A stretch of 64,000 nucleotides of DNA from Escherichia phage vB_EcoM_JNE01. Positions within the stretch are counted from its first letter, which is position 1. Each line of letters starts with the position of its first letter. The stretch lies in sequence record OR670491. One strand, given 5' to 3'. The notes beneath the pieces are model-generated. The model made no database searches. It was not told where the DNA came from and saw only the letters and a list, made by a program, of their open reading frames with translations. A program made the translations under genes and the position numbers. Positions 8,546 to 49,683 of the stretch are shown here, one piece after another.

Positions 8546-9310
8546 TTAATCCTTTAATATTATGTTAAAATTATCATAAAAGTACCTTTTTAGTACTGAG
8601 ATATGATCCTCATTGTATTTTATACGAAGCAAGTTAATATCATGTTCAGTACAGTACGCGTTTTTAATTTTATCATTGTGTTGAGTTTGTTTTAGTGATT
8701 CATCTCCACCCCAATGTTCTGAACATTGAAAATGCTGTTCACCATCATATTCAATACACAAATTCAAATCTTCAATATAAAAATCAAATGGTAAAGTGAA
8801 TACGTTTCGACAATCAGAAAAACGCTTTTCTTTTACATACTTCATAAAAGATAACATTTTTTCTATATCTGTTACAGCTTTTGATTGAGTTGATTCCATC
8901 ATACACTGCTCACAACCATGCCTACTAGCCAAATGATTATCAGGTCTTTGTAAAAATGACCCATGTATGGGGCATATTATGGATATATGTGTTTTGTTGT
9001 TAATATACTCCGCAGTATTGTAATCAAATTTGTTTTTAAACTTCAAATTAGCTTTTTCACGAAAATTTATAAAGTTTTTTGGACTTTTTTGACGGTTTGC
9101 ATTATATTCTTTTGAACATTTCATGCAACCTTTACCACTAGTATGATCGTTTGGTCTTTGAAGAAAAAAACCATGCTTTTCACACCCAATCCATACCTTT
9201 GTTTTTGCATTATGGTATTTAACCATACTATAATCATATCTAATTCCATGAACTCGTATTGCATTGGTCACAAATTTGTCTTTCGTTGATCTTGTGGTTG
9301 CATATTTCAT
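8546..9310 (-). CDS. Free-standing homing-endonuclease-like protein: two Zn-ribbon modules plus Vsr/DUF559-like PD-(D/E)xK nuclease domain
   Basis: Repeated C-x-x-H-G-x-F-x(7-9)-H-x(4-5)-G-C-x-x-C modules (CEKHGFF...GCMKC; CPIHGSF...GCEQC); C-terminal FDFYIED...IEYDGEQH motif typical of DUF559/Vsr-like endonuclease fold; inserted between gp25-like and gp6-like genes. Confidence 0.5.
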   Translation of the reverse strand: MKYATTRSTKDKFVTNAIRVHGIRYDYSMVKYHNAKTKVWIGCEKHGFFLQRPNDHTSGKGCMKCSKEYNANRQKSPKNFINFREKANLKFKNKFDYNTAEYINNKTHISIICPIHGSFLQRPDNHLASRHGCEQCMMESTQSKAVTDIEKMLSFMKYVKEKRFSDCRNVFTLPFDFYIEDLNLCIEYDGEQHFQCSEHWGGDESLKQTQHNDKIKNAYCTEHDINLLRIKYNEDHISVLKRYFYDNFNIILKD

Positions 9311-9788: not shown

Positions 9789-10277
9789 TTAGACGGACTC
9801 GACAATACGTGCCATTTGTTCCGCTCTGGATGTGGTTTGCTTATACCATGTACTATCACGCATTTCTTTACCAGCAGTTTTATAATCACCACGACCGAGA
9901 GCAGCCATAGCTTTTTTGAAGTTTAAAACTTTTGATTTGCCCATTTGGAAAACCATCAACCACAATACACGTTGTACTTTAACTGGTGCGGTCATACCGA
10001 ATTGGTCATAAATTGATTTAGCGTCATTGTACGCGGATTGAGCATCTTTAATTAATAGAGCATCAGCTTCTGCTTCGGTTAGACCAGATTTGAAATTTTC
10101 ACCAGGACGAACCAAGTGACCATAACCAATTGTATCTAAACCGAGGCTGTCTTTATACACCCAAAATTTGTCATTCTTAAAATAACCCAATTTCTTTTGA
10201 TAAGCAATTGTACCTTCAAATTCTTTAACTTCTTTGAAAAATTGCTCGTCTGTGTTTTTAATTTCCCATTTACTCAT
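9789..10277 (-). CDS. T4-type lysozyme (GH24 muramidase), probable endolysin
   Basis: Motifs TIGYGHL, MVFQMG, WYKQT..RAE match T4 lysozyme catalytic core; 162 aa; own late-type promoter and RBS AGAGGA upstream. Confidence 0.85.
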   Translation of the reverse strand: MSKWEIKNTDEQFFKEVKEFEGTIAYQKKLGYFKNDKFWVYKDSLGLDTIGYGHLVRPGENFKSGLTEAEADALLIKDAQSAYNDAKSIYDQFGMTAPVKVQRVLWLMVFQMGKSKVLNFKKAMAALGRGDYKTAGKEMRDSTWYKQTTSRAEQMARIVESV

Positions 10278-10315: not shown

Positions 10316-12979
10316 TTATTGGCAAGCCTCAATTCGACGTGCCATTAATTCTGCACGACGTGTGGTTTGTCTGTACCAAGCAGAGTTACGGATTTGTGCA
10401 GCAGCTTGCTTGTAATCACCTTTAGCTAGACAACTAAGCATAGTTTTAAATTTAAGAACACCACCTTTACCCATCTGGAATACCATTTGACATAGAACTT
10501 GCTGTGCCATATATGGCGTTTTCATGTTATAAGATGCATAAATTGATTTAGCATCATTAATCGCTTTAGTACTGTCCCTTACAAGCATATCGTTTGCTTC
10601 TTGTTCAGTAATGCCGCCGCTGAAATTTTCACCGCTGATAATCAAGTGTCCATAACCTATAGTTGGGAATCCACGACTATCTATATATCTCCAGAATTTA
10701 CCATTACGGAAATATCCTTTCGCTGCTTGATATTGTTGAGTACCTTCATATTCTTTCAATTCAGATGTAAATTGAGCATCACCAGGTACAACTTTCCAAT
10801 CAATTGCCGTTTTATCAACGGTTCCAACATTATATGATTCTTGCTGTGATGCAGCAGGAGCAGAAGTAGTTCGTTGTGTTCTTCTACGTCTAGGAACATG
10901 ACGAGAACCACGTTGTGAATAACCCGTACCGATAGTTTTGATTTTAGTTGATACAACCAATTCATCACTATCAACTGAAGGTTGAACTACTGCTTTTGGT
11001 GCGGCTTGGTTTGTTGCCTGACCTGCAATTAAGGTTTTATTTGCTGCATCAGAACCAGTACCAGTTTGTGAAGCATAGAATAACCCTGGGTCAACAGAAC
11101 CACTGAAACCGTACACACTTGATGATGTAACACGAATCTCAAACATAATGACACCATTTGCTGTACCGATTTTTTGTCCTTTTTGTACAACATCTTTATT
11201 CATCAAATCAGATTTGATATTAAAGAATACAGATTTGTATCCAGACTTATGCTGAATCAACAGTCCACCATTGGTTGCTGCGACAACACCGCCATCAGGG
11301 GCAACAATATCACCTCTGCATTGGATTTCCCAACCACTACTATCAACTTTACCACCACCTGCGACTGGTACGTTTTTACCCCAGTAACCATTCTGACGAA
11401 TAGTACCGCTACATGGCATAAACATATGCAAACCTTCATATGTAATCGTATATCCGGTCATACCAGGATCAGAAGTCATTAAATCTTCGGATTGAACTGA
11501 TTCTGTTTCTTGTGTATAGTTAATAAATTGTACTGCTTCTGTATCTTGTGCTTCTGCTAGTTCAGGAGCTACGTCATTAGCTGGTTGTGGCTGTACTGGT
11601 GCAGTAGTTGATGATCTACCACCACCTTGATATGGAGGCTCAACAGTACTTCCATGATTTTCTGCATCAACCCAGTTAGAAATGTTATGAATATGGTCAT
11701 TTAATCCAGCAGAAGGTGTTTTAAAATCAGGAGCAGAGAACATTGCAGTACCAGTATTACCTGCACTATCAACAGTTAAGTTCTGACCACCACCACTGAT
11801 GTTTACAGATGAACCACCTATTACGTTTGCACTGCTTGAACCTTTAATAGATGCAGATGAGCCAGCAGTGATATCAGTACTGCTACCACTTTGTAAACGT
11901 AGAGAAGCGGCTGTTACTAGACGTAAATCTGCACCAGAGTTCAATACAATTTGACCACCTACTTTTGCATCCAAATTACCAATTAAATCTAATTTAGTTT
12001 TACCACCAATTCGGGCATTTAGGTCTTGTCCACTCTCTATATTATAAGAACGTCCTGCAACCATGTTAATATCTTGACCAGCACGAATGTTAATGTTCTT
12101 ATCACAGTGCATGTCAATATCACCGTCACCTGAGAATCTAATACGTGCAGTACCGTCACGGTTAATCAATAGAACGTCTCCAGTGGCTTCAGAAAGCAAC
12201 AATTGAGCACCACTGCGTGTCTTTATGACTACACCTTCATTCTTACGAGAACCAACTCTGGTGTCGTTTACGGGGTTATTAAATTGTGTATCCTGGTAAC
12301 CATCTGGATCATCATCCCAAGATGGAGCAGTTAATTCTTCTTCAGTGTATCCATCATCAATAATAAAACTATTCCCGCGTGGTGATGACATACCATAGAC
12401 AGTACTGGTAGTTTGTCGAGTACTGCTGCGGTTTGCTACGCCTGCTTCTTCATCATATAGCAAGTTTTGCTTTTTAAGACCTGCGATGATAGGCACGTTT
12501 GCATATTTTTCTTGTGTAGTTGATGAAAGTGTGTTACGGTCATAGTCAGTTACTGGTAATGGCATATCAGTACCACCATAGTTACTTACTTCGGTAGCCA
12601 TACCAGGAACCATAGTGTTCATTCGTTGATCATAAACACACCCAATCCAGTATGCTTGGAATGTACGAGCCTGTGCAAATATAACAACCACAGTACAACC
12701 AACATCTGGAGGTACAGCCCAAAAACCATACCCTTTAGGGAACTGACCATAAGCTTCCGCACTTGGAATGCCTGGTGTTTTCCCTGCGAATGGAGACATG
12801 TAAGATGCTTCAATCCATGACTCCTTCGAGTTCTTGTCACTTTGTGAACCCTGAATCCATACTTTCAGTTTTCCTGATTTGGTAGGGTCACGGTTATCCA
12901 TTACTGTTGCCAGTTGTGGATAAGAAGGGTCGAAACGACCCAACTGTTGTTGTGCATACTTCTTACTAGTATCTGCCAT
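10316..12979 (-). CDS. Baseplate central spike gp5-like protein with beta-helix, degenerate M23/LytM-like region and C-terminal T4-type lysozyme domain
   Basis: N-terminus DNRDPTKSGKLKVWIQG resembles gp5 OB domain (DPTLKGRVKVRVHG); Gly/Ser-rich beta-helix-like repeats mid-protein; C-terminal 160 aa carry TIGYGHL / MVFQMG / WYRQT lysozyme motifs and are paralogous to the adjacent 162-aa lysozyme. Confidence 0.75.
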   Translation of the reverse strand: MADTSKKYAQQQLGRFDPSYPQLATVMDNRDPTKSGKLKVWIQGSQSDKNSKESWIEASYMSPFAGKTPGIPSAEAYGQFPKGYGFWAVPPDVGCTVVVIFAQARTFQAYWIGCVYDQRMNTMVPGMATEVSNYGGTDMPLPVTDYDRNTLSSTTQEKYANVPIIAGLKKQNLLYDEEAGVANRSSTRQTTSTVYGMSSPRGNSFIIDDGYTEEELTAPSWDDDPDGYQDTQFNNPVNDTRVGSRKNEGVVIKTRSGAQLLLSEATGDVLLINRDGTARIRFSGDGDIDMHCDKNINIRAGQDINMVAGRSYNIESGQDLNARIGGKTKLDLIGNLDAKVGGQIVLNSGADLRLVTAASLRLQSGSSTDITAGSSASIKGSSSANVIGGSSVNISGGGQNLTVDSAGNTGTAMFSAPDFKTPSAGLNDHIHNISNWVDAENHGSTVEPPYQGGGRSSTTAPVQPQPANDVAPELAEAQDTEAVQFINYTQETESVQSEDLMTSDPGMTGYTITYEGLHMFMPCSGTIRQNGYWGKNVPVAGGGKVDSSGWEIQCRGDIVAPDGGVVAATNGGLLIQHKSGYKSVFFNIKSDLMNKDVVQKGQKIGTANGVIMFEIRVTSSSVYGFSGSVDPGLFYASQTGTGSDAANKTLIAGQATNQAAPKAVVQPSVDSDELVVSTKIKTIGTGYSQRGSRHVPRRRRTQRTTSAPAASQQESYNVGTVDKTAIDWKVVPGDAQFTSELKEYEGTQQYQAAKGYFRNGKFWRYIDSRGFPTIGYGHLIISGENFSGGITEQEANDMLVRDSTKAINDAKSIYASYNMKTPYMAQQVLCQMVFQMGKGGVLKFKTMLSCLAKGDYKQAAAQIRNSAWYRQTTRRAELMARRIEACQ

Positions 12980-16257: not shown

Positions 16258-16312
16258 AACATTGATGGTACAAGGATTGTGCCAATTGGTTTCAAAACAT
16301 GGAGAGTTAATA

Positions 16313-17152
16313 ATGTCAATTAAACCCAAGCGTAAAAAGTATCTCAACAATGCTGATTTGCTTAGAGAAATTCAGAAAAGTAAAATGTCATATTGCTGGT
16401 TGTTAGACAAAAGCTACAGTATGTACGATTACATTGTTTTTGATGAATCTGAAATTACAGCAGAAATGTTGGATAAAGCTAAAGCTGCTCGTATCAAACG
16501 TCTTAACAATGAGATGCTTGATGCAGTACGTGAAAAAGAGGGTATGAGTGCTAAGAAAGCGAAGGAATACGCAGAAGCAAACAATTTAGTACTCACTGAT
16601 GTAGCCATTGATGAAGTTGTTATTCGTGTCATCACTGATGAACATATCCAACCGGATACACGAGTGAATTTTGAACCTTTTAAACATTACATTGTTGATG
16701 AAGAAGGTATCCTGTATGAAGTTGCTCGCTCTCACTGGAAAGGTGATTTAGAAGAAGGTGAGTTCTGCTTGACACATGGCAAAATCACAAATGAACTAGG
16801 TAAGATGTTCATCAAACTAGCAGAAGAAATCTCTCACAAATCAAACTATCGTAACTATACGTATCTTGATGAAATGATGGGTGATGCTAGAATACAATTA
16901 GTTAAAAACGCACTACTCTTTAAAGAGAGTATTCTTTATAAGAAAGATAAACCAGCAGTACAGTTGAATCCTTTCTCATATTATACTTCGTTTGTCAACA
17001 ACAGTTTCAGGTCAATCCTGAACAGTGAGAAGAATGTACGTAACATCCGTGATGATCTTCTTGAGATGCATGGTTTTACACCTTCCCATACACGACAAAT
17101 TGAAATTGAAATGAATATGATTGAAAGGAAGAACGAAGATGGCTCTATTTGA
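16313..17152 (+). CDS. Late-transcription sigma factor, T4 gp55-like
   Basis: N-terminus MSIKPKRKKYLNNADLLREIQ parallels T4 gp55 KPKYNYVNNKELLQAI; RBS GGAGAG 7 nt upstream; ORF-track ORF starts further upstream at 16262. Confidence 0.6.
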   Translation: MSIKPKRKKYLNNADLLREIQKSKMSYCWLLDKSYSMYDYIVFDESEITAEMLDKAKAARIKRLNNEMLDAVREKEGMSAKKAKEYAEANNLVLTDVAIDEVVIRVITDEHIQPDTRVNFEPFKHYIVDEEGILYEVARSHWKGDLEEGEFCLTHGKITNELGKMFIKLAEEISHKSNYRNYTYLDEMMGDARIQLVKNALLFKESILYKKDKPAVQLNPFSYYTSFVNNSFRSILNSEKNVRNIRDDLLEMHGFTPSHTRQIEIEMNMIERKNEDGSI

Positions 17153-27700: not shown

Positions 27701-27751
27701 ACAAAAATCGCACTTTTTAAAGCGTTTAAAAATGGCGAAATTTTTCAGTAC

Positions 27752-27763
27752 TAAATAATATCA
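27752..27763 (+). promoter_or_regulatory. Late-promoter-like motif TAAATAATATCA
   Basis: Same 12-mer occurs upstream of major capsid gene and twice (minus strand) upstream of the 41948-43240 paralog pair. Confidence 0.4.
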
Positions 27764-27800
27764 TACTTTATACGAATATAATATATCTATGGAGGATATA

Positions 27801-28643
27801 ATGGCGAATTTAAAACTACTACAAGAAGCAATTGAAGCTTTCGCAAACGGCGAGCAAGATGTTGCAGATAAAAAAATGCGTAAGTACTTTGTTGAGCAAG
27901 CTCAAGAAATTAACAAAGAACTAGAAGAAAGCATGGAAGACGAAGAAGAAATTGAAGTCAAGGATGAAGAAAAACTTGATGAAGATTTCGATGTACAACC
28001 TGATGCTGGCCTAAACTCTGAAATCGAATTCGCTCTAGGTGAAGAAGATGAAAGTGCCGAAGCTGAAGTCGAAGAATTTGGTTCTGAAGACGATGGCGAA
28101 GTTGAAGTTGGTGCTGAAGAAGAAGTTGAAGGTGATGCTGGTGTTCCTTCCGAAGATCAATGGGAATCCATTCAAGATGCTTTCCGTGGCCTACAAGACA
28201 TGTTTGATGAAATCGGTGGCGATGTAGACGTTGACCTAGACTCTGAAGAAGAAGTTGAAGGTGATGTTGAAGAATTTGGTGCTGATGGTGAAGAAGCAGA
28301 AGACGAATTTAGTGATGTTCAATTCGGTGATGAAAAAGTTGGTGAATCTTTCAAACTAAAACCAGTAGCTGGTGTTGATAAGAAAGAAAAAGCTGGTGCT
28401 AACACCAAGTCCCCAGTGGCTGGTCAAGCAAAATCTCCAGTAGCTGGCGTAGAACCAGTTAAATTCGCTAAAGCAACCGAAACTCAAGTTGATGACGATT
28501 TCGAAACCGCTGACACCCTATCTGCTAAGAAAGAAGATATGGCTAAAAATGCTCGTGGTGAAATGAAAGACGTTAAAGCACCTAAAGTTGCCGCTGCTGC
28601 GAAAAGTCGCTCAGTACTACCAAAATCTCAACCAAAAATCTAA
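27801..28643 (+). CDS. Highly acidic, repeat-containing prohead core / internal head protein
   Basis: Asp/Glu-rich with internal repeats (EEEVEGD..., KSPVAG x2); position between portal and prohead protease as for T4 core proteins. Confidence 0.55.
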   Translation: MANLKLLQEAIEAFANGEQDVADKKMRKYFVEQAQEINKELEESMEDEEEIEVKDEEKLDEDFDVQPDAGLNSEIEFALGEEDESAEAEVEEFGSEDDGEVEVGAEEEVEGDAGVPSEDQWESIQDAFRGLQDMFDEIGGDVDVDLDSEEEVEGDVEEFGADGEEAEDEFSDVQFGDEKVGESFKLKPVAGVDKKEKAGANTKSPVAGQAKSPVAGVEPVKFAKATETQVDDDFETADTLSAKKEDMAKNARGEMKDVKAPKVAAAAKSRSVLPKSQPKI

Positions 28644-30478: not shown

Positions 30479-30516
30479 ACATTTTAAAGCATTTTAATAA
30501 TCAATCTTTTCAGTTC

Positions 30517-30524
30517 TATAAATA
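30517..30524 (+). promoter_or_regulatory. T4-type late promoter TATAAATA upstream of major capsid gene
   Basis: CTATAAATAATATCATACTG about 45 nt upstream of ATG 30570. Confidence 0.55.
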
Positions 30525-30569
30525 ATATCATACTGAAAAACGAATATAACATCTTTAAGGAGATATACA

Positions 30570-31745
30570 ATGTCACAACTACTAAATGAATCCAAATGGG
30601 TAGCAGTTAAAGAGAAACTAGTTGAAGGTCTACAAGGTACTCGTAAGTCCGTAATGGAAACCGTACTTGATAACCATCGTAAACTAATGCTTAACGAATC
30701 TGCTACTTCTGGTGCAACCACCGCTGGTAACATCGCTACTCTAAACAAAGTGATTCTACCAATTATGCGTCGTGTAATGCCTACCGTAATCGCTAACGAA
30801 ATCATCGGTGTTCAGCCAATGACTGGCCCAGTTGGTCAGATCCACACCCTACGTGTTCAATATGCTGACAACGCTCCTGGTGTTATCGCTGGTGAAGAAA
30901 TGCTTTCTCCATACAAAATCGCTAAAGCGTATTCTGGTGAACTAAACGCTGACAACAGCAACCCACAAGCTGCTCCTACTAGCCAACTAGAAGGTACTAT
31001 GGGTCGTCGCGTTAACATCCGTATCCTACGTGAAACTGTTGAAGCGAAATCTCGTCGTCTATCTGCACGTTGGACTGTTGAATCTGCACAAGATGCTCAA
31101 TCCCAACATGGTATCGATGTTGAAGCTGAACTAATGGCTGCTATCGCTCAAGAAGTTACCGTTGAAATCGACCAAGAGCTACTAAGCCGTCTACGTGCAC
31201 TACCTGGTGCTGCTGCTGTAACTTATGACCAATCTAAAGTTACTGGTGTTGCTACCTTCGTTGGTGACGAACACGCCGCTCTAGCTACTCTAATCAACCG
31301 TCAAGCGAACGAAGTTGCTCGTCGTACCAAACGTGGTGCTGCGAACTGGGCTGTTGTTTCTCCAACCGCTCTAACCATTCTACAGTCTGCAACTACTTCT
31401 AGTTTTGCACGTACTACTGAAGGTACTTTCGAAGCTCCAACTAACGTTAAATTTGTTGGTACTCTAAACAGTACTATGCGTATTTTTGTAGACACTTACG
31501 CCAGCGATGTCGAGGACATTTTGATTGGTTATAAAGGTAATGCAGAAACTGATGCTGGTGTATTCTACTGCCCATACATCCCACTAATGGCATCTGGTAC
31601 TGTAATGGACCCTAACACTGGAGAACTCGTTACGACCTTCTTGACACGTTATGGTTACGTTCAACTAACTGACTCAACCAGTTCTTTAGGTAATGCTGCG
31701 GATTACTACAGCAAAATCGCTATCAAAAACGTTACTTTCATGTAA
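30570..31745 (+). CDS. Major capsid protein, T4 gp23-like (compact form)
   Basis: IIGVQPMTGPVGQIHTLRVQY, VEAKSRRLSARWTVESAQD, GYKGNAETDAGVFYCPYIPL parallel T4 gp23 segments; strong RBS AAGGAG. Confidence 0.9.
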   Translation: MSQLLNESKWVAVKEKLVEGLQGTRKSVMETVLDNHRKLMLNESATSGATTAGNIATLNKVILPIMRRVMPTVIANEIIGVQPMTGPVGQIHTLRVQYADNAPGVIAGEEMLSPYKIAKAYSGELNADNSNPQAAPTSQLEGTMGRRVNIRILRETVEAKSRRLSARWTVESAQDAQSQHGIDVEAELMAAIAQEVTVEIDQELLSRLRALPGAAAVTYDQSKVTGVATFVGDEHAALATLINRQANEVARRTKRGAANWAVVSPTALTILQSATTSSFARTTEGTFEAPTNVKFVGTLNSTMRIFVDTYASDVEDILIGYKGNAETDAGVFYCPYIPLMASGTVMDPNTGELVTTFLTRYGYVQLTDSTSSLGNAADYYSKIAIKNVTFM

Positions 31746-31889: not shown

Positions 31890-32888
31890 ATGGCTAGTAA
31901 ATTTAATGAACAATATTATGTTGATAAAATTGAAGGTATCATCAAACGTAATAACTTGAACATGAAATTCATAAAAATCATAAACTTCAAAAATGCTAAA
32001 AGTAATTTTTGTTATACATGTTGGGATTGTAAGTCTTCAGTACTGGAAACTAATATAGATAATTTTTCAACCCGCAAAAAATGTCAACACTGTGGTATTA
32101 TGAAACAACAGCACGGTACTAGTGTTCCAAAAACTGAAAGTCAATATAGACATGAATGTTTAAAACGTATTAAGCAAGAGAAAAAACCGTGGGAATATAT
32201 TAAAACCATTAGCTATAATGACAAGAAAAACTCTAGAGTGGAATTCCACTGTAAAAAGCATGAGCGTAATTTCATTGTTACATTTGATGATTTCTTGGGT
32301 AACAAAAGTGGTTGCGTGGACTGTGGAATAGAACGCACTAGTGAGTCCAAAAGAAAAGACCTCAAAACAATGAAATCCCAGTTGATAGGAATTCATGGTG
32401 AAAAGTACACCTATGATGATTTTCAATATGATGAAAGTTATGATTATCACAGTACTGAATGTGTATTTGGATGTCCCATACACAAAGACGTGAAGATTTA
32501 TAAAACTGTACCAAACTTTAGAAAAACTGATAGAGAACATTGTCCTGTGTGCAACGAACGTGAAGGAACAATGCGTGAACCATCAACACTATACGTCCAA
32601 CGTATAACACACCCAAGTAAAGGTGTATTTTATAAGTTAGGTGTAACTAACGATATAAGCCGTAGGATTAGTCAACAAAAACATTATGCAAACACTGAAC
32701 ATGAAGTATTGTTGATTGAAGATTTTGAAACTCGTAGAGAAGCACAAGACTTAGAACAGAAAATAAAAGGTACTATAACTAACAAGGTAGTTGATAAAGA
32801 AGATTTCCCTGATGGATACACTGAAACTTTCAATGAATCTGATTTAGACTTAGTACTATCCATGATTAAAGAATGGAAAGCTATGTAA
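31890..32888 (+). CDS. Homing-endonuclease-like protein: three Zn-ribbon modules plus C-terminal T5orf172/GIY-YIG-like domain
   Basis: Zn-ribbon modules like those in 8546-9310 gene (FHCKKHE...GCVDCG; CPIHKD...HCPVCN); C-terminal LYVQRI...GVFYKLGVTNDISRR...EHEVLLIEDF pattern of T5orf172 (GIY-YIG-like) domain. Confidence 0.5.
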   Translation: MASKFNEQYYVDKIEGIIKRNNLNMKFIKIINFKNAKSNFCYTCWDCKSSVLETNIDNFSTRKKCQHCGIMKQQHGTSVPKTESQYRHECLKRIKQEKKPWEYIKTISYNDKKNSRVEFHCKKHERNFIVTFDDFLGNKSGCVDCGIERTSESKRKDLKTMKSQLIGIHGEKYTYDDFQYDESYDYHSTECVFGCPIHKDVKIYKTVPNFRKTDREHCPVCNEREGTMREPSTLYVQRITHPSKGVFYKLGVTNDISRRISQQKHYANTEHEVLLIEDFETRREAQDLEQKIKGTITNKVVDKEDFPDGYTETFNESDLDLVLSMIKEWKAM

Positions 32889-41184: not shown

Positions 41185-41902
41185 AAAAAGATACTTGCCT
41201 TTCTGTCTAGTCCCTGCTCATTGGGGACTTTCAGGGAAAGCAAAAGAGATTGCAAAAGCATACTATTACAACGATGATTATGAAGCAGATATTATAGTTG
41301 CAGAACTTACATATCTTACTCCATATGAAGTTGAAAAGGCTCAATTAGATATCAAGAAGAAGTATGGAGTTATCTCCGATGAACTTGAGTATCTAATTGC
41401 ACTTGCTGATTTAGATTTAAAATACTCAAAGATTACTCGTGATGAATATAATGTAAAGATACTTGATGCAAAATTAAGTACTGAAGCAATCACTAAACAA
41501 GAGTATGATCTTGAGATTATAGAACTAATGCCCGATAGTGATGATAAGTTATTAAAAACTATTGAGTACGCATATAGTTATGGTGAAATTACTCAACAAG
41601 AGTATTCTAAGGAAATCTTTACTTTACGTAAAGAACCTTGGATTGATTTGGATGTAATTCTAAACGATTCAAATGAAGTAGAATTTATATTTGATTATAA
41701 TGAATACTTCGTTAAGAAACTAAAAGATGAAGGTCATCCAGGAAATGATGAAGAAGAACTAATTGATAACTTCATTCGTGACTTGGGTCGCAAATTAGCA
41801 ACTGACGAGTTTAGTGATAACTATGACGTAAAGCTAGTAGCCGAGAACGAGGGGATCGAGAACCTACCTGGTTTACCTGACGGCTTTAAAAGATACAAAT
41901 AA
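41177..41902 (+). CDS. Hypothetical protein with short internal repeats
   Basis: ORF overlapping GroES-like stop; repeated I-T-x-x-E-Y segments. Confidence 0.45.
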   Translation: MAKKRYLPFCLVPAHWGLSGKAKEIAKAYYYNDDYEADIIVAELTYLTPYEVEKAQLDIKKKYGVISDELEYLIALADLDLKYSKITRDEYNVKILDAKLSTEAITKQEYDLEIIELMPDSDDKLLKTIEYAYSYGEITQQEYSKEIFTLRKEPWIDLDVILNDSNEVEFIFDYNEYFVKKLKDEGHPGNDEEELIDNFIRDLGRKLATDEFSDNYDVKLVAENEGIENLPGLPDGFKRYK

Positions 41903-41933
41903 AAAAAAGGAGAGCAAAAATGCTCTCCTTTTC
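41901..41933. terminator. Bidirectional rho-independent terminator between convergent genes
   Basis: AAAAAAAA-GGAGAGCA-aaaa-TGCTCTCC-TTTTCTT. Confidence 0.7.
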
Positions 41934-41947
41934 TTGTATATAAATTA

Positions 41948-42625
41948 TTAAACCATAGGTGGGATAAATTTGAATAGTTTGATACCGAAATCACCAGCAG
42001 CATCAGCAGCTTTGGAATTCAGAACAACTTCAGTTACGCCATCTTTAGCTAGTAGTGGAACCATAGTTAGATCGTCAATTAGTAGACGGCCTTCTTCGAT
42101 ATCAGTACTTGGAACGCCTTGGAAAGATTGAATATCTTTATCAAACACGTTAGCACGTTCAACTAGGAAAGTAACTACGGAAGCACTAGGAATTGAAACA
42201 GCACCAACATTCATCACACCATCAGCAGCGTTGGTAAAATCAGTAACTGCTAGGTCTGCACCGATTTGGGAAGTAGCAATGATTACAGCACGTTGTTGAA
42301 CAACATCAACGATACGTTTAACGTTGGTTTGTGCAGCATAAGAAGCATTATAATCAGCTTCTAGGGTTGCAACTTCAAATGGAGTACCATCGATACGGAT
42401 GATACCTTTTTCGTTTAGGTAAACAACGATATCTTCAGCGATATCAGAGTTTAGGAAACGTTGTAGCCCAGCGAAAGAAGCAACTGCACCAGTAACTAGT
42501 ACGTTAACATCACCTAGTTTACTAACAGCGATGGATGCTAGGGCGTTTTTACCACAGAAGTAACCTAGAACGCTTTCATAGGAAAAACCATTGATACGTT
42601 CAAAAGTAGTATTAGTATTAGACAT
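41948..42625 (-). CDS. Late-expressed protein, paralog B of tandem pair (probable virion component)
   Basis: Shares blocks with upstream paralog (QQRAVIIATS vs QQRAVLVTTS; FLVERANVFDKD vs FICERQDVFDKQ); Ala/Val/Thr/Gly-rich; strong RBS. Confidence 0.55.
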   Translation of the reverse strand: MSNTNTTFERINGFSYESVLGYFCGKNALASIAVSKLGDVNVLVTGAVASFAGLQRFLNSDIAEDIVVYLNEKGIIRIDGTPFEVATLEADYNASYAAQTNVKRIVDVVQQRAVIIATSQIGADLAVTDFTNAADGVMNVGAVSIPSASVVTFLVERANVFDKDIQSFQGVPSTDIEEGRLLIDDLTMVPLLAKDGVTEVVLNSKAADAAGDFGIKLFKFIPPMV

Positions 42626-42640
42626 AGTAATGTTCTCCTA

Positions 42641-43240
42641 TTATAGTTGTACTGGAAGTGCAGCACGTACTTTAATAGCAACAGCAGTAGAAGCAGCCGC
42701 ATCACCAACACCATCAGTACCAACTGCTTGGTAAGTTTTGGTACGGAAGAATTTAGCTTGAGCAATAGACTTAGCTAGTTCTACGGTTGGGTCAACTGGA
42801 ACAGAGTAAGCAGCACCAGGACGAACTTCTTGCTTGTCAAATACGTCTTGACGTTCACAAATGAAGGTTAGAGCAACAGAGTTAGCACCACCAGTAACAT
42901 CAGCACCACTAGTACCGAATGCGATTACGTTACCACCAACGGTTTTGAAATCACTAGGAATAACAACTTCAGTATCTAGAGCTAGAACAGAAGTGGTAAC
43001 TAGAACAGCACGTTGTTGTAGTAGTTGGGTGATCATGAATTGGTTGTATTGAGCATTACTGATTGCAGTTTGTAGTGCTTCGTCTTGAACATCAGAACCA
43101 TCGGAAGTAACTTTAGTAGTACCAACTTCAACGTCAGTTGGAAGATTTACAACGATAGTTACGAAACCGTTGTTACCACCCCAGTACTCACGACCAGTAG
43201 CAGACATACCATAGTTACGGTTAAAAGAATTAAGACTCAT
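42641..43240 (-). CDS. Late-expressed protein, paralog A of tandem pair (probable virion component)
   Basis: See paralog B; preceded on minus strand by two copies of TAAATAATATCA late-type motif. Confidence 0.55.
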   Translation of the reverse strand: MSLNSFNRNYGMSATGREYWGGNNGFVTIVVNLPTDVEVGTTKVTSDGSDVQDEALQTAISNAQYNQFMITQLLQQRAVLVTTSVLALDTEVVIPSDFKTVGGNVIAFGTSGADVTGGANSVALTFICERQDVFDKQEVRPGAAYSVPVDPTVELAKSIAQAKFFRTKTYQAVGTDGVGDAAASTAVAIKVRAALPVQL

Positions 43241-43281
43241 AAAAATCTCCTTGTCAAATTTTGTGCAGGATTCTCCTGCTT

Positions 43282-43296
43282 GATATTATTTATCAA
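43282..43296 (-). promoter_or_regulatory. Late-promoter-like motif (minus-strand TGATAAATAATATCA), proximal copy
   Basis: Motif shared with capsid-gene upstream region. Confidence 0.4.
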
Positions 43297-43344
43297 AAAT
43301 TATCCAGTGGCATTTAAAAATAACTGAATTACCCTTGACTCTAT

Positions 43345-43359
43345 GATATTATTTATCAT
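43345..43359 (-). promoter_or_regulatory. Late-promoter-like motif (minus-strand TGATAAATAATATCA), distal copy
   Basis: Second exact copy about 63 bp from the first. Confidence 0.4.
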
Positions 43360-43465
43360 TTCTGGGACAGCAGCTAAAGATGTGCTACAATTATTAACGA
43401 AATACAAAGAAAACGGAGATTTCATATGCATTACCATTAAACATAAATGGCGACCTGAATGGTAA

Positions 43466-49683
<6,218 letters not shown>

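What the first reader, a model, noticed from the sequence alone, without database searches (positions are those of the whole stretch)
41948..43359. Tandem paralogous late genes driven by duplicated late-type promoters
Two adjacent genes of about 200 aa share clear sequence blocks and are rich in Ala/Val/Thr/Gly. They lie on the minus strand inside an otherwise plus-strand replication block and are preceded by two exact copies of TGATAAATAATATCA, the motif also found upstream of the capsid gene. They are likely abundant virion proteins (decoration, tube or fibre-type) of unknown role.
Basis: partly seen in the sequence, partly recalled or inferred. Interest (0 to 1): 0.45.

Follow-up and report, generated by a model that had tools for sequence, protein, structure and literature searches.

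The report
Abundant jumbo-phage virion protein pair
Two neighbouring, related genes of a giant E. coli phage encode two of its most abundant particle proteins, already detected by proteomics in sister phages; they sit behind a conserved pair of late promoters, and their exact place in the particle is still unknown.

Summary
The window is a RaK2/121Q-type jumbo myophage, 99.5% identical to phage Turkey5. Two minus-strand genes, pA (43240..42641, 199 aa) and pB (42625..41948, 225 aa), are full-length paralogues. They form a two-gene operon with Shine-Dalgarno sites and a terminator.

Upstream lie two exact copies of TGATAAATAATATCA. Each contains ATAAATA, the late-promoter core already published for this phage group. 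In the window, 16 of 22 ATAAATA sites lie 8-70 nt upstream of a co-oriented gene. A gp55-like late sigma factor is encoded at 16262.

New here:
- The two-promoter arrangement (63-68 nt apart) is conserved in 13 phages of at least four named genera.
- A hairpin follows the proximal promoter, with compensatory changes.
- pA and pB have the strongest codon bias in the window.

Orthologues were found by mass spectrometry in phAPEC6, CBB and RaK2 virions. The RaK2 paper of 2013 already called them distantly related, abundant and unprocessed, and suggested a tail-tube role. I disfavour that: real tube homologues sit next to the sheath gene, and the predicted fold is not tube-like.

The fold matches no solved structure. 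The best guess is capsid decoration or cement protein. The finding is largely already known, and the interest is modest.

The parts
42641..43240 (-). pA: 199-aa virion protein, 21.0 kDa, pI 4.7. Orthologue of phAPEC6 gp210, RaK2 gp107w and CBB_271.
   Evidence: ORF; phrog_9326 at 3e-84; 83% identical to the PBECO4, phAPEC6 and 121Q orthologues; effective number of codons 30.8, second lowest of 50 genes; AF2 model pLDDT 80, pTM 0.75.
41948..42625 (-). pB: 225-aa paralogue, 23.9 kDa, pI 4.4. Orthologue of phAPEC6 gp211, RaK2 gp106w and CBB_270. It has a two-helix insertion relative to pA.
   Evidence: ORF; phrog_9326 at 1.2e-76; hhalign against the pA family gives 99% probability; effective number of codons 28.9, the lowest in the window; AF2 model pLDDT 82, pTM 0.77.
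43281..43295 (-). Proximal late promoter, TGATAAATAATATCA. The core ATAAATA is at 43293..43287 and ends 46 nt before the pA ATG.
   Evidence: An ATAAATA at the equivalent position (45-53 nt before the ATG) is present in 13 of 13 related phages compared.
43344..43358 (-). Distal late promoter, an identical 15-mer. The core is at 43356..43350, 63 nt upstream of the proximal one. It also lies at about -40 to -54 of the divergent plus-strand promoter.
   Evidence: A second ATAAATA 63-68 nt upstream of the proximal one, in the same orientation, is present in 13 of 13 phages from Asteriusvirus, Alcyoneusvirus, Mimasvirus, Eneladusvirus and unclassified relatives.
43265..43279 (-). Conserved stem-loop GCAGGA-GAA-TCCTGC, starting 7 nt after the proximal ATAAATA. 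It is predicted to lie at or near the 5' end of the proximal late transcript.
   Evidence: The RNA fold contains it (whole 55-nt leader -13.9 kcal/mol, z=-2.7). The stem is kept in all phages while the loop varies from 3 to 17 nt. Compensatory changes occur in RaK2 (GTAAG/CTTAC) and the Vibrio phage (GCCAG/CTGGC).
43247..43250 (-). Shine-Dalgarno GGAG of pA, within AAGGAGA, 6 nt before the ATG.
   Evidence: Read from the sequence; conserved in all relatives.
42635..42638 (-). Shine-Dalgarno GGAG of pB, inside the 15-nt pA-pB spacer. There is no promoter or terminator between the two genes, so they form one operon.
   Evidence: Read from the sequence. No ATAAATA lies between the genes.
41902..41935 (.). 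Bidirectional intrinsic terminator, AAAAGGAGAGCA-loop-TGCTCTCCTTTTTTTT. It lies between pB and the convergent 249-aa gene.
   Evidence: Terminator scan hits on both strands with 12-15 pairs. G17 annotates a terminator at the same place.
43364..43391 (+). Context: divergent sigma-70-type promoter, GGGACA-16-TACAAT with an upstream TG, for the 5'-3' exonuclease (rnh) operon whose gene starts at 43499.
   Evidence: Promoter scan. The TGnTA(T/C)AAT element is conserved in the relatives when the pA-sense alignments are read on the other strand.
16262..17152 (+). Context, acting in trans: gp55-like late sigma factor, presumed to read ATAAATA.
   Evidence: phrog_12791 'sigma factor for late transcription' at 1.2e-150 and phrog_234 at 1.2e-16.

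Best explanation
pA and pB are a late, very highly expressed two-gene operon encoding two paralogous, acidic proteins of about 21 and 24 kDa. These are among the most abundant components of the jumbo-phage particle.

How it is expressed (inferred from sequence). Host RNA polymerase carrying the phage gp55-like late sigma factor starts at two ATAAATA promoters placed 63 nt apart. The transcript from the proximal promoter begins at or next to a conserved stem-loop, which probably protects its 5' end. Both genes have good Shine-Dalgarno sites and extreme codon bias. A strong bidirectional terminator ends the operon.

What the proteins do (inference only). They are most likely the still-unassigned outer capsid decoration or cement proteins of the T=28 head. 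The conserved N-terminal arm, which is disordered in the monomer model, would dock onto the capsid lattice.

My probabilities: late abundant virion proteins about 0.9; capsid-surface role about 0.45.
For: Shown in the sequence:
- Paralogy.
- Operon layout, Shine-Dalgarno sites and terminator.
- ATAAATA sites sit upstream of co-oriented structural genes, p=1.5e-19.
- A late sigma gene lies in the window.
- The promoter pair is conserved 63-68 nt apart in 13 phages.
- The hairpin shows compensatory changes.
- pB and pA have the lowest effective number of codons of 50 genes (28.9 and 30.8, against 32.5 for the major capsid protein). Leu is CTA in 16/17 and 9/12 codons, as in the capsid gene.

From the literature on orthologues:
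- phAPEC6 gp210 and gp211 were found in virions at 69.8% and 69.9% coverage, against 74.9% for the capsid protein and 68.0% for the sheath (PMC7247149).
- CBB_270 had 91.3% coverage, matching the top of the 4.1-91.3% range reported for that proteome, and CBB_271 had 56.4% (PMC5259590).
- RaK2 gp106w and gp107w are abundant gel bands that migrate at their predicted size (PMC3622015).
- ATAAATA was published as the late motif of CBB and GAP32.

For a capsid role specifically:
- The phAPEC6 and 121Q maps show an elongated outer protein in as many copies as the capsid protein, plus hexamer-centre and penton proteins. None has been assigned to a gene.
- pA and pB are among the few small proteins abundant enough to fill that role.
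- They are acidic, Ala/Val/Thr/Gly-rich and poor in Lys/Arg.
- The N-arm is almost invariant yet predicted disordered.
Against: - No experiment places these proteins on the capsid.
- Peptide coverage is only a rough proxy for copy number.
- phAPEC6 lists other small, well-covered proteins that could equally be the decoration proteins: gp347, gp306c, gp315c and gp253.
- Late timing is inferred from the motif, not measured.
- The transcription start relative to the hairpin is assumed from T4 geometry.
Confidence: 0.5

Rival explanations
1. One of the two proteins is the tail tube protein, as proposed for RaK2 gp106w/gp107w in 2013.
For: The size (21-24 kDa), abundance and beta-rich prediction were the original arguments (PMC3622015). 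No tube protein had been recognised in RaK2 at that time.
Against: - Three paralogous tube-type proteins lie immediately downstream of the sheath gene in phAPEC6. gp275c and gp274c match phrog_4542 'tail tube protein' at 5e-86 and 8e-80. gp273c matches phrog_13438 at 8.5e-227.
- The pA/pB profile shows no relation to them (hhalign probability 0.14%).
- The pA/pB pair is not next to any tail gene in any relative.
Confidence: 0.04
2. pA and pB are internal head proteins that build the 'inner body' rod seen in 121Q and phAPEC6 heads. They would be packaged with the DNA.
For: A rod of 91 x 18 nm of unknown composition exists. It would need on the order of hundreds of copies of a 20-kDa protein (my estimate). 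In phiKZ-type phages several different proteins make up the inner body.
Against: - Both proteins are acidic (pI 4.4-4.7), with few Lys/Arg.
- RaK2 orthologues are not proteolytically processed. Internal proteins of T4- and phiKZ-type heads are usually cleaved by the prohead protease (established knowledge and PMC7247149 ref. 31).
- No similarity to phiKZ inner-body proteins was found for any phAPEC6 protein.
Confidence: 0.15
3. pA and pB decorate the tail, as sheath-surface rings or anchors of the hair-like whiskers.
For: phAPEC6 tails carry unassigned decoration proteins at two levels and three rings of fibres. CBB and 121Q are also 'hairy'.
Against: - The pair is present in every relative, including GAP32, which was not reported to have whiskers.
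- Tail-ring positions would need only tens of copies. That fits poorly with coverage comparable to the capsid protein and sheath, and with the strongest codon bias in the window.
Confidence: 0.12
4. The distal TGATAAATAATATCA is not a second late promoter. It would instead be the A+T-rich UP element of the divergent exonuclease promoter, or a palindromic binding site (TGATA-N5-TATCA) for a dimeric regulator.
For: It lies at about -40 to -54 of the plus-strand promoter GGGACA-16-TACAAT. CBB RpoD-like promoters are reported to carry UP-like elements. The 15-mer is an imperfect palindrome (read from the sequence).
Against: - The exact heptamer ATAAATA, in the pA orientation and 63-68 nt from the proximal one, is kept in 13 of 13 phages while the flanks diverge. 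In RaK2, CBB, GAP32, XaC1 and the Erwinia phages the palindromic arms are lost but ATAAATA stays.
- The same extended motif precedes the capsid gene, where no divergent promoter exists.
Confidence: 0.2

Closest known systems
RaK2 gp107w/gp106w, phAPEC6 gp210/gp211, CBB_271/CBB_270, GAP32_265/264, 121Q gp618 (pA orthologue) and its neighbouring pB orthologue (PHROG family phrog_9326 'virion structural protein')
   Same: Direct orthologues, 56-83% identical for pA. The gene order and position are the same: divergent from the rnh exonuclease gene and convergent with the GroES-like gene. The upstream promoter pair is the same. The orthologues are experimentally virion-associated.
   Different: Nothing essential differs. 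In this lineage the proximal promoter has drifted to full 15-nt identity with the distal one. A 77-aa plus-strand gene present in Turkey5 between the pair and rnh is deleted here.
Phage T4 late promoters (TATAAATA, read by gp55 with gp33 and the gp45 clamp)
   Same: The core is ATAAATA without a -35 element, placed shortly upstream of late and structural genes. A gp55-like sigma is encoded in the window. The resemblance was already noted for CBB and GAP32.
   Different: The first T of the T4 octamer is not conserved; here it is G, T, C or A. gp33 and gp45 homologues were not recognised in CBB. The putative clamp of this window matches only a PHROG of unknown function. A fixed promoter pair followed by a hairpin is not a described T4 feature, to my knowledge.
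Capsid decoration or cement proteins (lambda gpD, T4 Soc and Hoc, T5 pb10, P74-26 Dec, phage L Dec)
   Same: Small, abundant, late-made proteins that are not cleaved. The terminal arm is conserved, which in gpD-type proteins inserts into the capsid lattice (my knowledge). The host capsid has unassigned decoration density at 1:1 with the capsid protein.
   Different: The predicted fold is a ferredoxin-like alpha/beta sandwich with a 26-residue helix. None of those decoration proteins appears among the fold-search matches. Capsid binding is not shown.
5'-terminal stem-loops that stabilise bacterial and phage mRNAs (for example the ompA leader)
   Same: A short G+C-rich hairpin a few nucleotides from the expected transcript start of a very highly expressed gene. 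The stem is conserved and the loop is free to vary.
   Different: The transcript 5' end is not mapped and no stability data exist. The comparison is by analogy, from my own knowledge.

Membership tests
phrog_9326 / RaK2 gp106w-gp107w virion protein family | Significant full-length match to the family profile | tested here: met
   pA 3e-84 over residues 1-199; pB 1.2e-76 over residues 4-224.
phrog_9326 / RaK2 gp106w-gp107w virion protein family | Conserved position as an adjacent pair between the rnh exonuclease and the GroES-like gene, on the opposite strand | tested here: met
   The layout is the same in PBECO4, G17, phAPEC6, CBB, RaK2, a Vibrio phage and a metagenomic contig.
phrog_9326 / RaK2 gp106w-gp107w virion protein family | Physical presence in purified virions | not testable with these tools
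   Shown only for orthologues: phAPEC6, CBB and RaK2.
T4-type (gp55-dependent) late promoter | Core (T)ATAAATA about 10 bp upstream of the start, with no -35 element | tested here: met
   ATAAATA lies at 43287-43293 and 43350-43356 on the minus strand. It is identical to the published RaK2-group late motif.
T4-type (gp55-dependent) late promoter | The motif is concentrated upstream of, and co-oriented with, late or structural genes | tested here: met
   16 of 22 sites lie in the promoter zone, p=1.5e-19. Among the other 7-mers of the same composition the highest fraction is 41% (TAAATAA, which overlaps the motif) and most are 20% or less. The genes downstream are the capsid protein, protease, scaffold, baseplate hub, fibre and endonuclease VII.
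T4-type (gp55-dependent) late promoter | A cognate late sigma factor is encoded by the phage | tested here: met
   Window 16262..17152 matches phrog_12791 at 1.2e-150 and phrog_234 at 1.2e-16.
T4-type (gp55-dependent) late promoter | Late, replication-coupled activity and a mapped start site | not testable with these tools
   No transcriptome of this phage group was found in the papers searched.
Myophage tail tube protein (T4 gp19 / Hcp fold) | Tube-type beta-sandwich fold or sequence match to tube families | tested here: not met
Myophage tail tube protein (T4 gp19 / Hcp fold) | Gene adjacent to the sheath gene | tested here: not met
   The tube-type genes gp273c-275c follow the sheath gene gp277c in phAPEC6. 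pA and pB lie elsewhere.
Capsid decoration / cement proteins | Fold of a known decoration class (beta-tulip, Ig-like, OB, Soc) | tested here: not met
   The best matches are generic ferredoxin-like domains, Z no higher than 6.2. BFVD returns only family members and uncharacterised jumbo-phage proteins.
Capsid decoration / cement proteins | Binds the outside of the mature capsid at a defined stoichiometry | not testable with these tools
   Unassigned outer densities exist in phAPEC6 and 121Q. No assignment has been made.
HK97-fold capsid or vertex protein | HK97 fold | tested here: not met
   There is only a marginal hit to phrog_1005, E=0.041. No HK97-type structure appears among the fold-search matches.
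Haemagglutinin-repeat protein (the phAPEC6 gp211 annotation) | Match to a haemagglutinin repeat model | tested here: not met
   No Pfam family matches either protein at E<=1.

The most novel reading that the evidence does not exclude
pA and pB would be a previously unrecognised class of capsid cement protein with an orphan alpha/beta fold. As a paralogous pair, perhaps a heterodimer bridging local two-fold axes, they would form the hexagonal outer network that stabilises the T=28 head of RaK2/121Q-type jumbo phages. Their synthesis would be boosted by a conserved module of two late promoters plus a 5' hairpin.
Probability: 0.4. Interest if true: 0.5.

Novelty: already known. Interest (0 to 1): 0.3.

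Why it matters
These two proteins are among the most abundant components of a widespread group of giant enterobacterial phages that are being considered for therapy. Yet their place in the particle is unassigned. The only published suggestion, tail tube, does not survive comparison with the real tube genes.

Assigning them would complete the capsid model of T=28 jumbo heads. It would also identify a high-copy, probably surface-exposed scaffold useful for display. The conserved promoter pair and hairpin is a compact, testable example of how a T4-like late system maximises output from one operon. None of this changes the main picture: the gene pair and the late motif are already in the literature.

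Tried and rejected
- Pfam: no family for either protein at E<=1. The 'haemagglutinin repeat' label in phAPEC6 is therefore unsupported.
- PDB by sequence, single proteins and the family profile: only chance-level hits.
- Profile search of 1.84 billion representative proteins: only 42 clusters. The family is confined to this phage lineage, so no annotated distant relative is available.
- Context of a distant homologue (P0042): the same synteny, plus a third gene upstream. There is no new neighbour such as a capsid gene.
- Tail tube hypothesis: rejected.
- HK97-like reading of the long helix plus sheet: rejected for lack of any fold hit.
- Rfam on the region and on the whole window: nothing at gathering score, and only E of about 0.5 noise near the terminator.
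- tRNA scan, to explain the CTA-Leu preference: none in the window.
- The apparent lack of ORFs at 1-5 kb was checked. It is a giant minus-strand ORF that runs off the window end.
- A literature search for a high-resolution RaK2-group capsid found none.
Full report
**What the window is.** The 2-kb region is 99.5% identical to Escherichia phage Turkey5. It is about 80% identical to Asteriusvirus phages such as PBECO4, 121Q, phAPEC6 and G17. The window is therefore part of a RaK2/121Q-type jumbo myophage of about 350 kb. It also contains genes for the portal, prohead protease, scaffold, major capsid protein, DNA polymerase, GroES-like co-chaperonin, 5'-3' exonuclease, terminase, baseplate proteins and a gp55-like late sigma factor.

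**Checking the observation.** Two adjacent minus-strand ORFs exist, 42641..43240 (pA, 199 aa) and 41948..42625 (pB, 225 aa).
- They share 37% identity over 83 residues by BLASTP (E=2e-7).
- Orthologue profiles align over essentially the full length (hhalign probability 99%, E=8.9e-18, 176 columns). pB carries an insertion of about 30 residues after the first strand.
- Both match the same PHROG family, phrog_9326 'virion structural protein'.
- A+V+T+G makes up 43% of pA and 37% of pB.
- They are the only minus-strand genes within about 35 kb of plus-strand genes. That block mixes head, replication and packaging functions.
- TGATAAATAATATCA occurs exactly twice, 63 nt apart, upstream of pA.
- Its 13-mer ATAAATAATATCA recurs 45 nt before the capsid gene.

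**The promoters.** The 15-mer contains ATAAATA. Buttimer et al. reported ATAAATA as the putative late promoter of phages CBB and GAP32 and likened it to the T4 late promoter TATAAATA (PMC5259590).

In this window ATAAATA is no more frequent than chance, with 22 found and 26 expected. Its placement is far from random. Sixteen of 22 copies lie 8-70 nt upstream of a co-oriented gene start, a zone that covers 3.35% of strand positions (binomial p=1.5e-19). Among other 7-mers of the same composition, the highest fraction is 41% (TAAATAA, which overlaps the motif), and most are 20% or less. The genes served include the capsid protein, prohead protease, scaffold, several virion proteins, baseplate hub, a tail fibre and endonuclease VII. 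A gp55-like late sigma factor is encoded at 16262..17152. Late timing is therefore a well-founded inference, but it was not measured.

**The pair of promoters is old, not a recent duplication.** I compared the region upstream of pA in 13 phages: Asteriusvirus, RaK2 (Alcyoneusvirus), CBB and GAP32 (Mimasvirus), Eneladusvirus, Salmonella phage Munch, Xanthomonas phage XaC1 and Erwinia phage Kaldavass.
- All 13 have two ATAAATA copies in the pA orientation, 63-68 nt apart. The proximal one ends 45-53 nt before the ATG.
- The ancestral proximal site reads tttgATAAATAac(a/t)ttaag. Only in the Turkey5 lineage has it become identical to the distal site over 15 nt.
- The distal 15-mer is identical in the window, PBECO4, EC.P1, UE-S1 and the distant phage Munch. 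It differs elsewhere, while ATAAATA is always kept.
- The TGATA-N5-TATCA palindrome is thus not conserved, which argues against a dimeric-regulator site.

The distal motif also lies at about -40 to -54 of a divergent plus-strand promoter, GGGACA-16-TACAAT with an upstream TG. The TGnTATAAT element of that promoter is conserved in the relatives (read on the other strand). A secondary role for the distal motif as an UP-like element cannot be excluded.

**A conserved 5' hairpin.** Seven nucleotides after the proximal ATAAATA lies a stem-loop, GCAGGA-GAA-TCCTGC in the window (43279..43265).
- The stem is present in every phage, while the loop varies from 3 to 17 nt in length and in sequence.
- RaK2 has GTAAG/CTTAC, with two pairs changed on both sides. 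The Vibrio phage has GCCAG/CTGGC.
- RNA folding of the leaders always contains the stem-loop. The whole 55-nt window leader folds at -13.9 kcal/mol, z=-2.7.

With T4-like geometry the proximal transcript would start at or just before this hairpin. By analogy with known 5' stabilisers, it probably protects the mRNA. This step is inference.

The operon is completed by Shine-Dalgarno sites for both genes, a 15-nt spacer with no signals, and a strong bidirectional terminator at 41902-41935.

**Expression level.** pB and pA have the lowest effective number of codons of the 50 genes of at least 120 codons in the window, at 28.9 and 30.8. The capsid gene scores 32.5. They share the capsid gene's near-exclusive use of CTA for Leu, GGT for Gly and CGT for Arg. 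This fits very high expression.

**What is already known about the proteins.**
- The orthologues phAPEC6 gp210 and gp211 were detected in purified virions with 69.8% and 69.9% sequence coverage. That is comparable only to the capsid protein (74.9%), the sheath (68.0%) and a few small proteins (PMC7247149).
- CBB_270 had 91.3% coverage, matching the top of the 4.1-91.3% range reported for that proteome. CBB_271 had 56.4%.
- In RaK2, gp106w and gp107w are named gel bands. They were described as 'two distantly related proteins', abundant, and migrating at their predicted mass, hence unprocessed. One of them was proposed to be the tail tube (PMC3622015).

**Testing the tube proposal.** In phAPEC6 the three genes just downstream of the sheath gene are tube-type proteins. 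gp275c and gp274c match phrog_4542 at 5e-86 and 8e-80, and gp273c matches phrog_13438 at 8.5e-227. The pA/pB profile is unrelated to them (hhalign probability 0.14%). The predicted folds give no tube or Hcp match. I consider the tube role very unlikely.

**Fold and family.** The AF2 models are confident: pLDDT 80 and 82, pTM 0.75 and 0.77. Each has a disordered N-terminal arm of about 21 residues, a 26-residue helix and a mixed sheet. The arm is nevertheless the most conserved part. In pA, R8, N9, Y10, G11, E18, W20, G21, G22, N24 and G25 are invariant, and pB has the matching R-I-N-G motif. That suggests it becomes ordered on a partner.
- Foldseek finds nothing in the PDB.
- Sequence and profile searches of the PDB are empty.
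- Pfam has no match.
- BFVD returns family members and uncharacterised jumbo-phage proteins.

The family is tiny: 42 representative clusters among 1.84 billion proteins, and 73 phage records, all RaK2-like. Synteny is conserved even in marine relatives, which carry a third gene in the cassette. A 227-aa BFVD protein that I take to be the Vibrio phage's third gene matched the pA model (E=4e-5), so it is probably a third paralogue.

**Most likely role.** The 10-A maps of phAPEC6 and 121Q show several features that no gene has been assigned to:
- an elongated outer protein forming a hexagonal network, in as many copies as the capsid protein;
- a protein at each hexamer centre;
- a penton protein.

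pA and pB are small, unprocessed, acidic and extremely abundant, and they are made from the most codon-optimised late operon in the window. That makes them the best candidates, so I put a capsid-surface role at about 0.45.

Alternatives are the inner-body rod (about 0.15; argued against by the acidity and the lack of processing), tail decoration (about 0.12; argued against by the abundance and by presence in GAP32) and the tube (about 0.04). The remainder is unassigned. No tool here can place the proteins.

**Verdict.** New points from this analysis are the deep conservation of the two-promoter spacing, the covarying 5' hairpin, the extreme codon bias, the orphan fold, and the bioinformatic rejection of the tube hypothesis. 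Interest is modest at 0.3. It would rise if the proteins prove to be a new class of capsid cement.

Noticed in passing
window 45670..48330 (+): The terminase large subunit is 886 aa. It contains an intein-like insert with LAGLIDADG_3 (1.4e-10) and Hom_end domains at about residues 280-366, ahead of the Terminase_6N match. PBECO4 has a 1638-nt gene without the insert. In Turkey5 the gene is annotated in two pieces totalling about 1.6 kb. The RaK2 gene is 2670 nt and so probably also carries an insert.
   Followed up: partly
window 43392..43470 compared with L001 7728..7958: Turkey5 has a 77-aa plus-strand gene between the pA promoters and the exonuclease gene. In the window about 190 bp are deleted between short GTAAT repeats, leaving only ATG-CAT-TAC-CAT-TAA.
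   Followed up: partly
window 8546..9310 (-) and 31890..32888 (+): Two homing-endonuclease-type genes lie inside structural gene clusters. One is an HNH type (phrog_559, 1.2e-56) between baseplate genes, with its own ATAAATA 26 nt upstream. The other is an endonuclease (phrog_681, 2e-40) directly after the capsid gene.
   Followed up: no
window 9789..10277 (-): This 162-aa ORF matches only the C-terminal lysozyme part (profile positions 727-885) of the 887-aa baseplate hub/lysozyme protein encoded immediately upstream at 10316..12979. It looks like a separate copy of that domain. Two ATAAATA motifs 18 nt apart precede it.
   Followed up: no
window 27701..27791 and 30479..30572 (+): The regions upstream of the 284-aa virion protein gene (the gp228c-like protein) and of the capsid gene are similar over about 90 nt, well beyond the promoter core: TTTTAAAGC...TTTTCAGT.C.TAAATAATATCATACT...ACGAATATAA. 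This looks like a duplicated promoter-plus-leader cassette.
   Followed up: partly
window pA, pB, the capsid gene (30570..31745) and 27789..28643: The most highly biased late genes encode Leu almost only as CTA (75-94%). To my knowledge CTA is a rare codon in E. coli. No tRNA gene lies in the window. Whether the phage carries a matching tRNA-Leu elsewhere was not checked.
   Followed up: no
window 1..about 5040 (-): The apparent ORF desert is one giant minus-strand reading frame of at least 1679 codons that runs off the window's left end. It is presumably the orthologue of the 382-kDa phAPEC6 gp245 virion protein.
   Followed up: yes
L007 1135..3206 and L018 9068..11390: A Vibrio phage and a metagenomic relative carry three genes in the cassette instead of two. 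In the Vibrio phage the first two genes each have their own ATAAATA and hairpin, with a terminator-like hairpin between them.
   Followed up: partly
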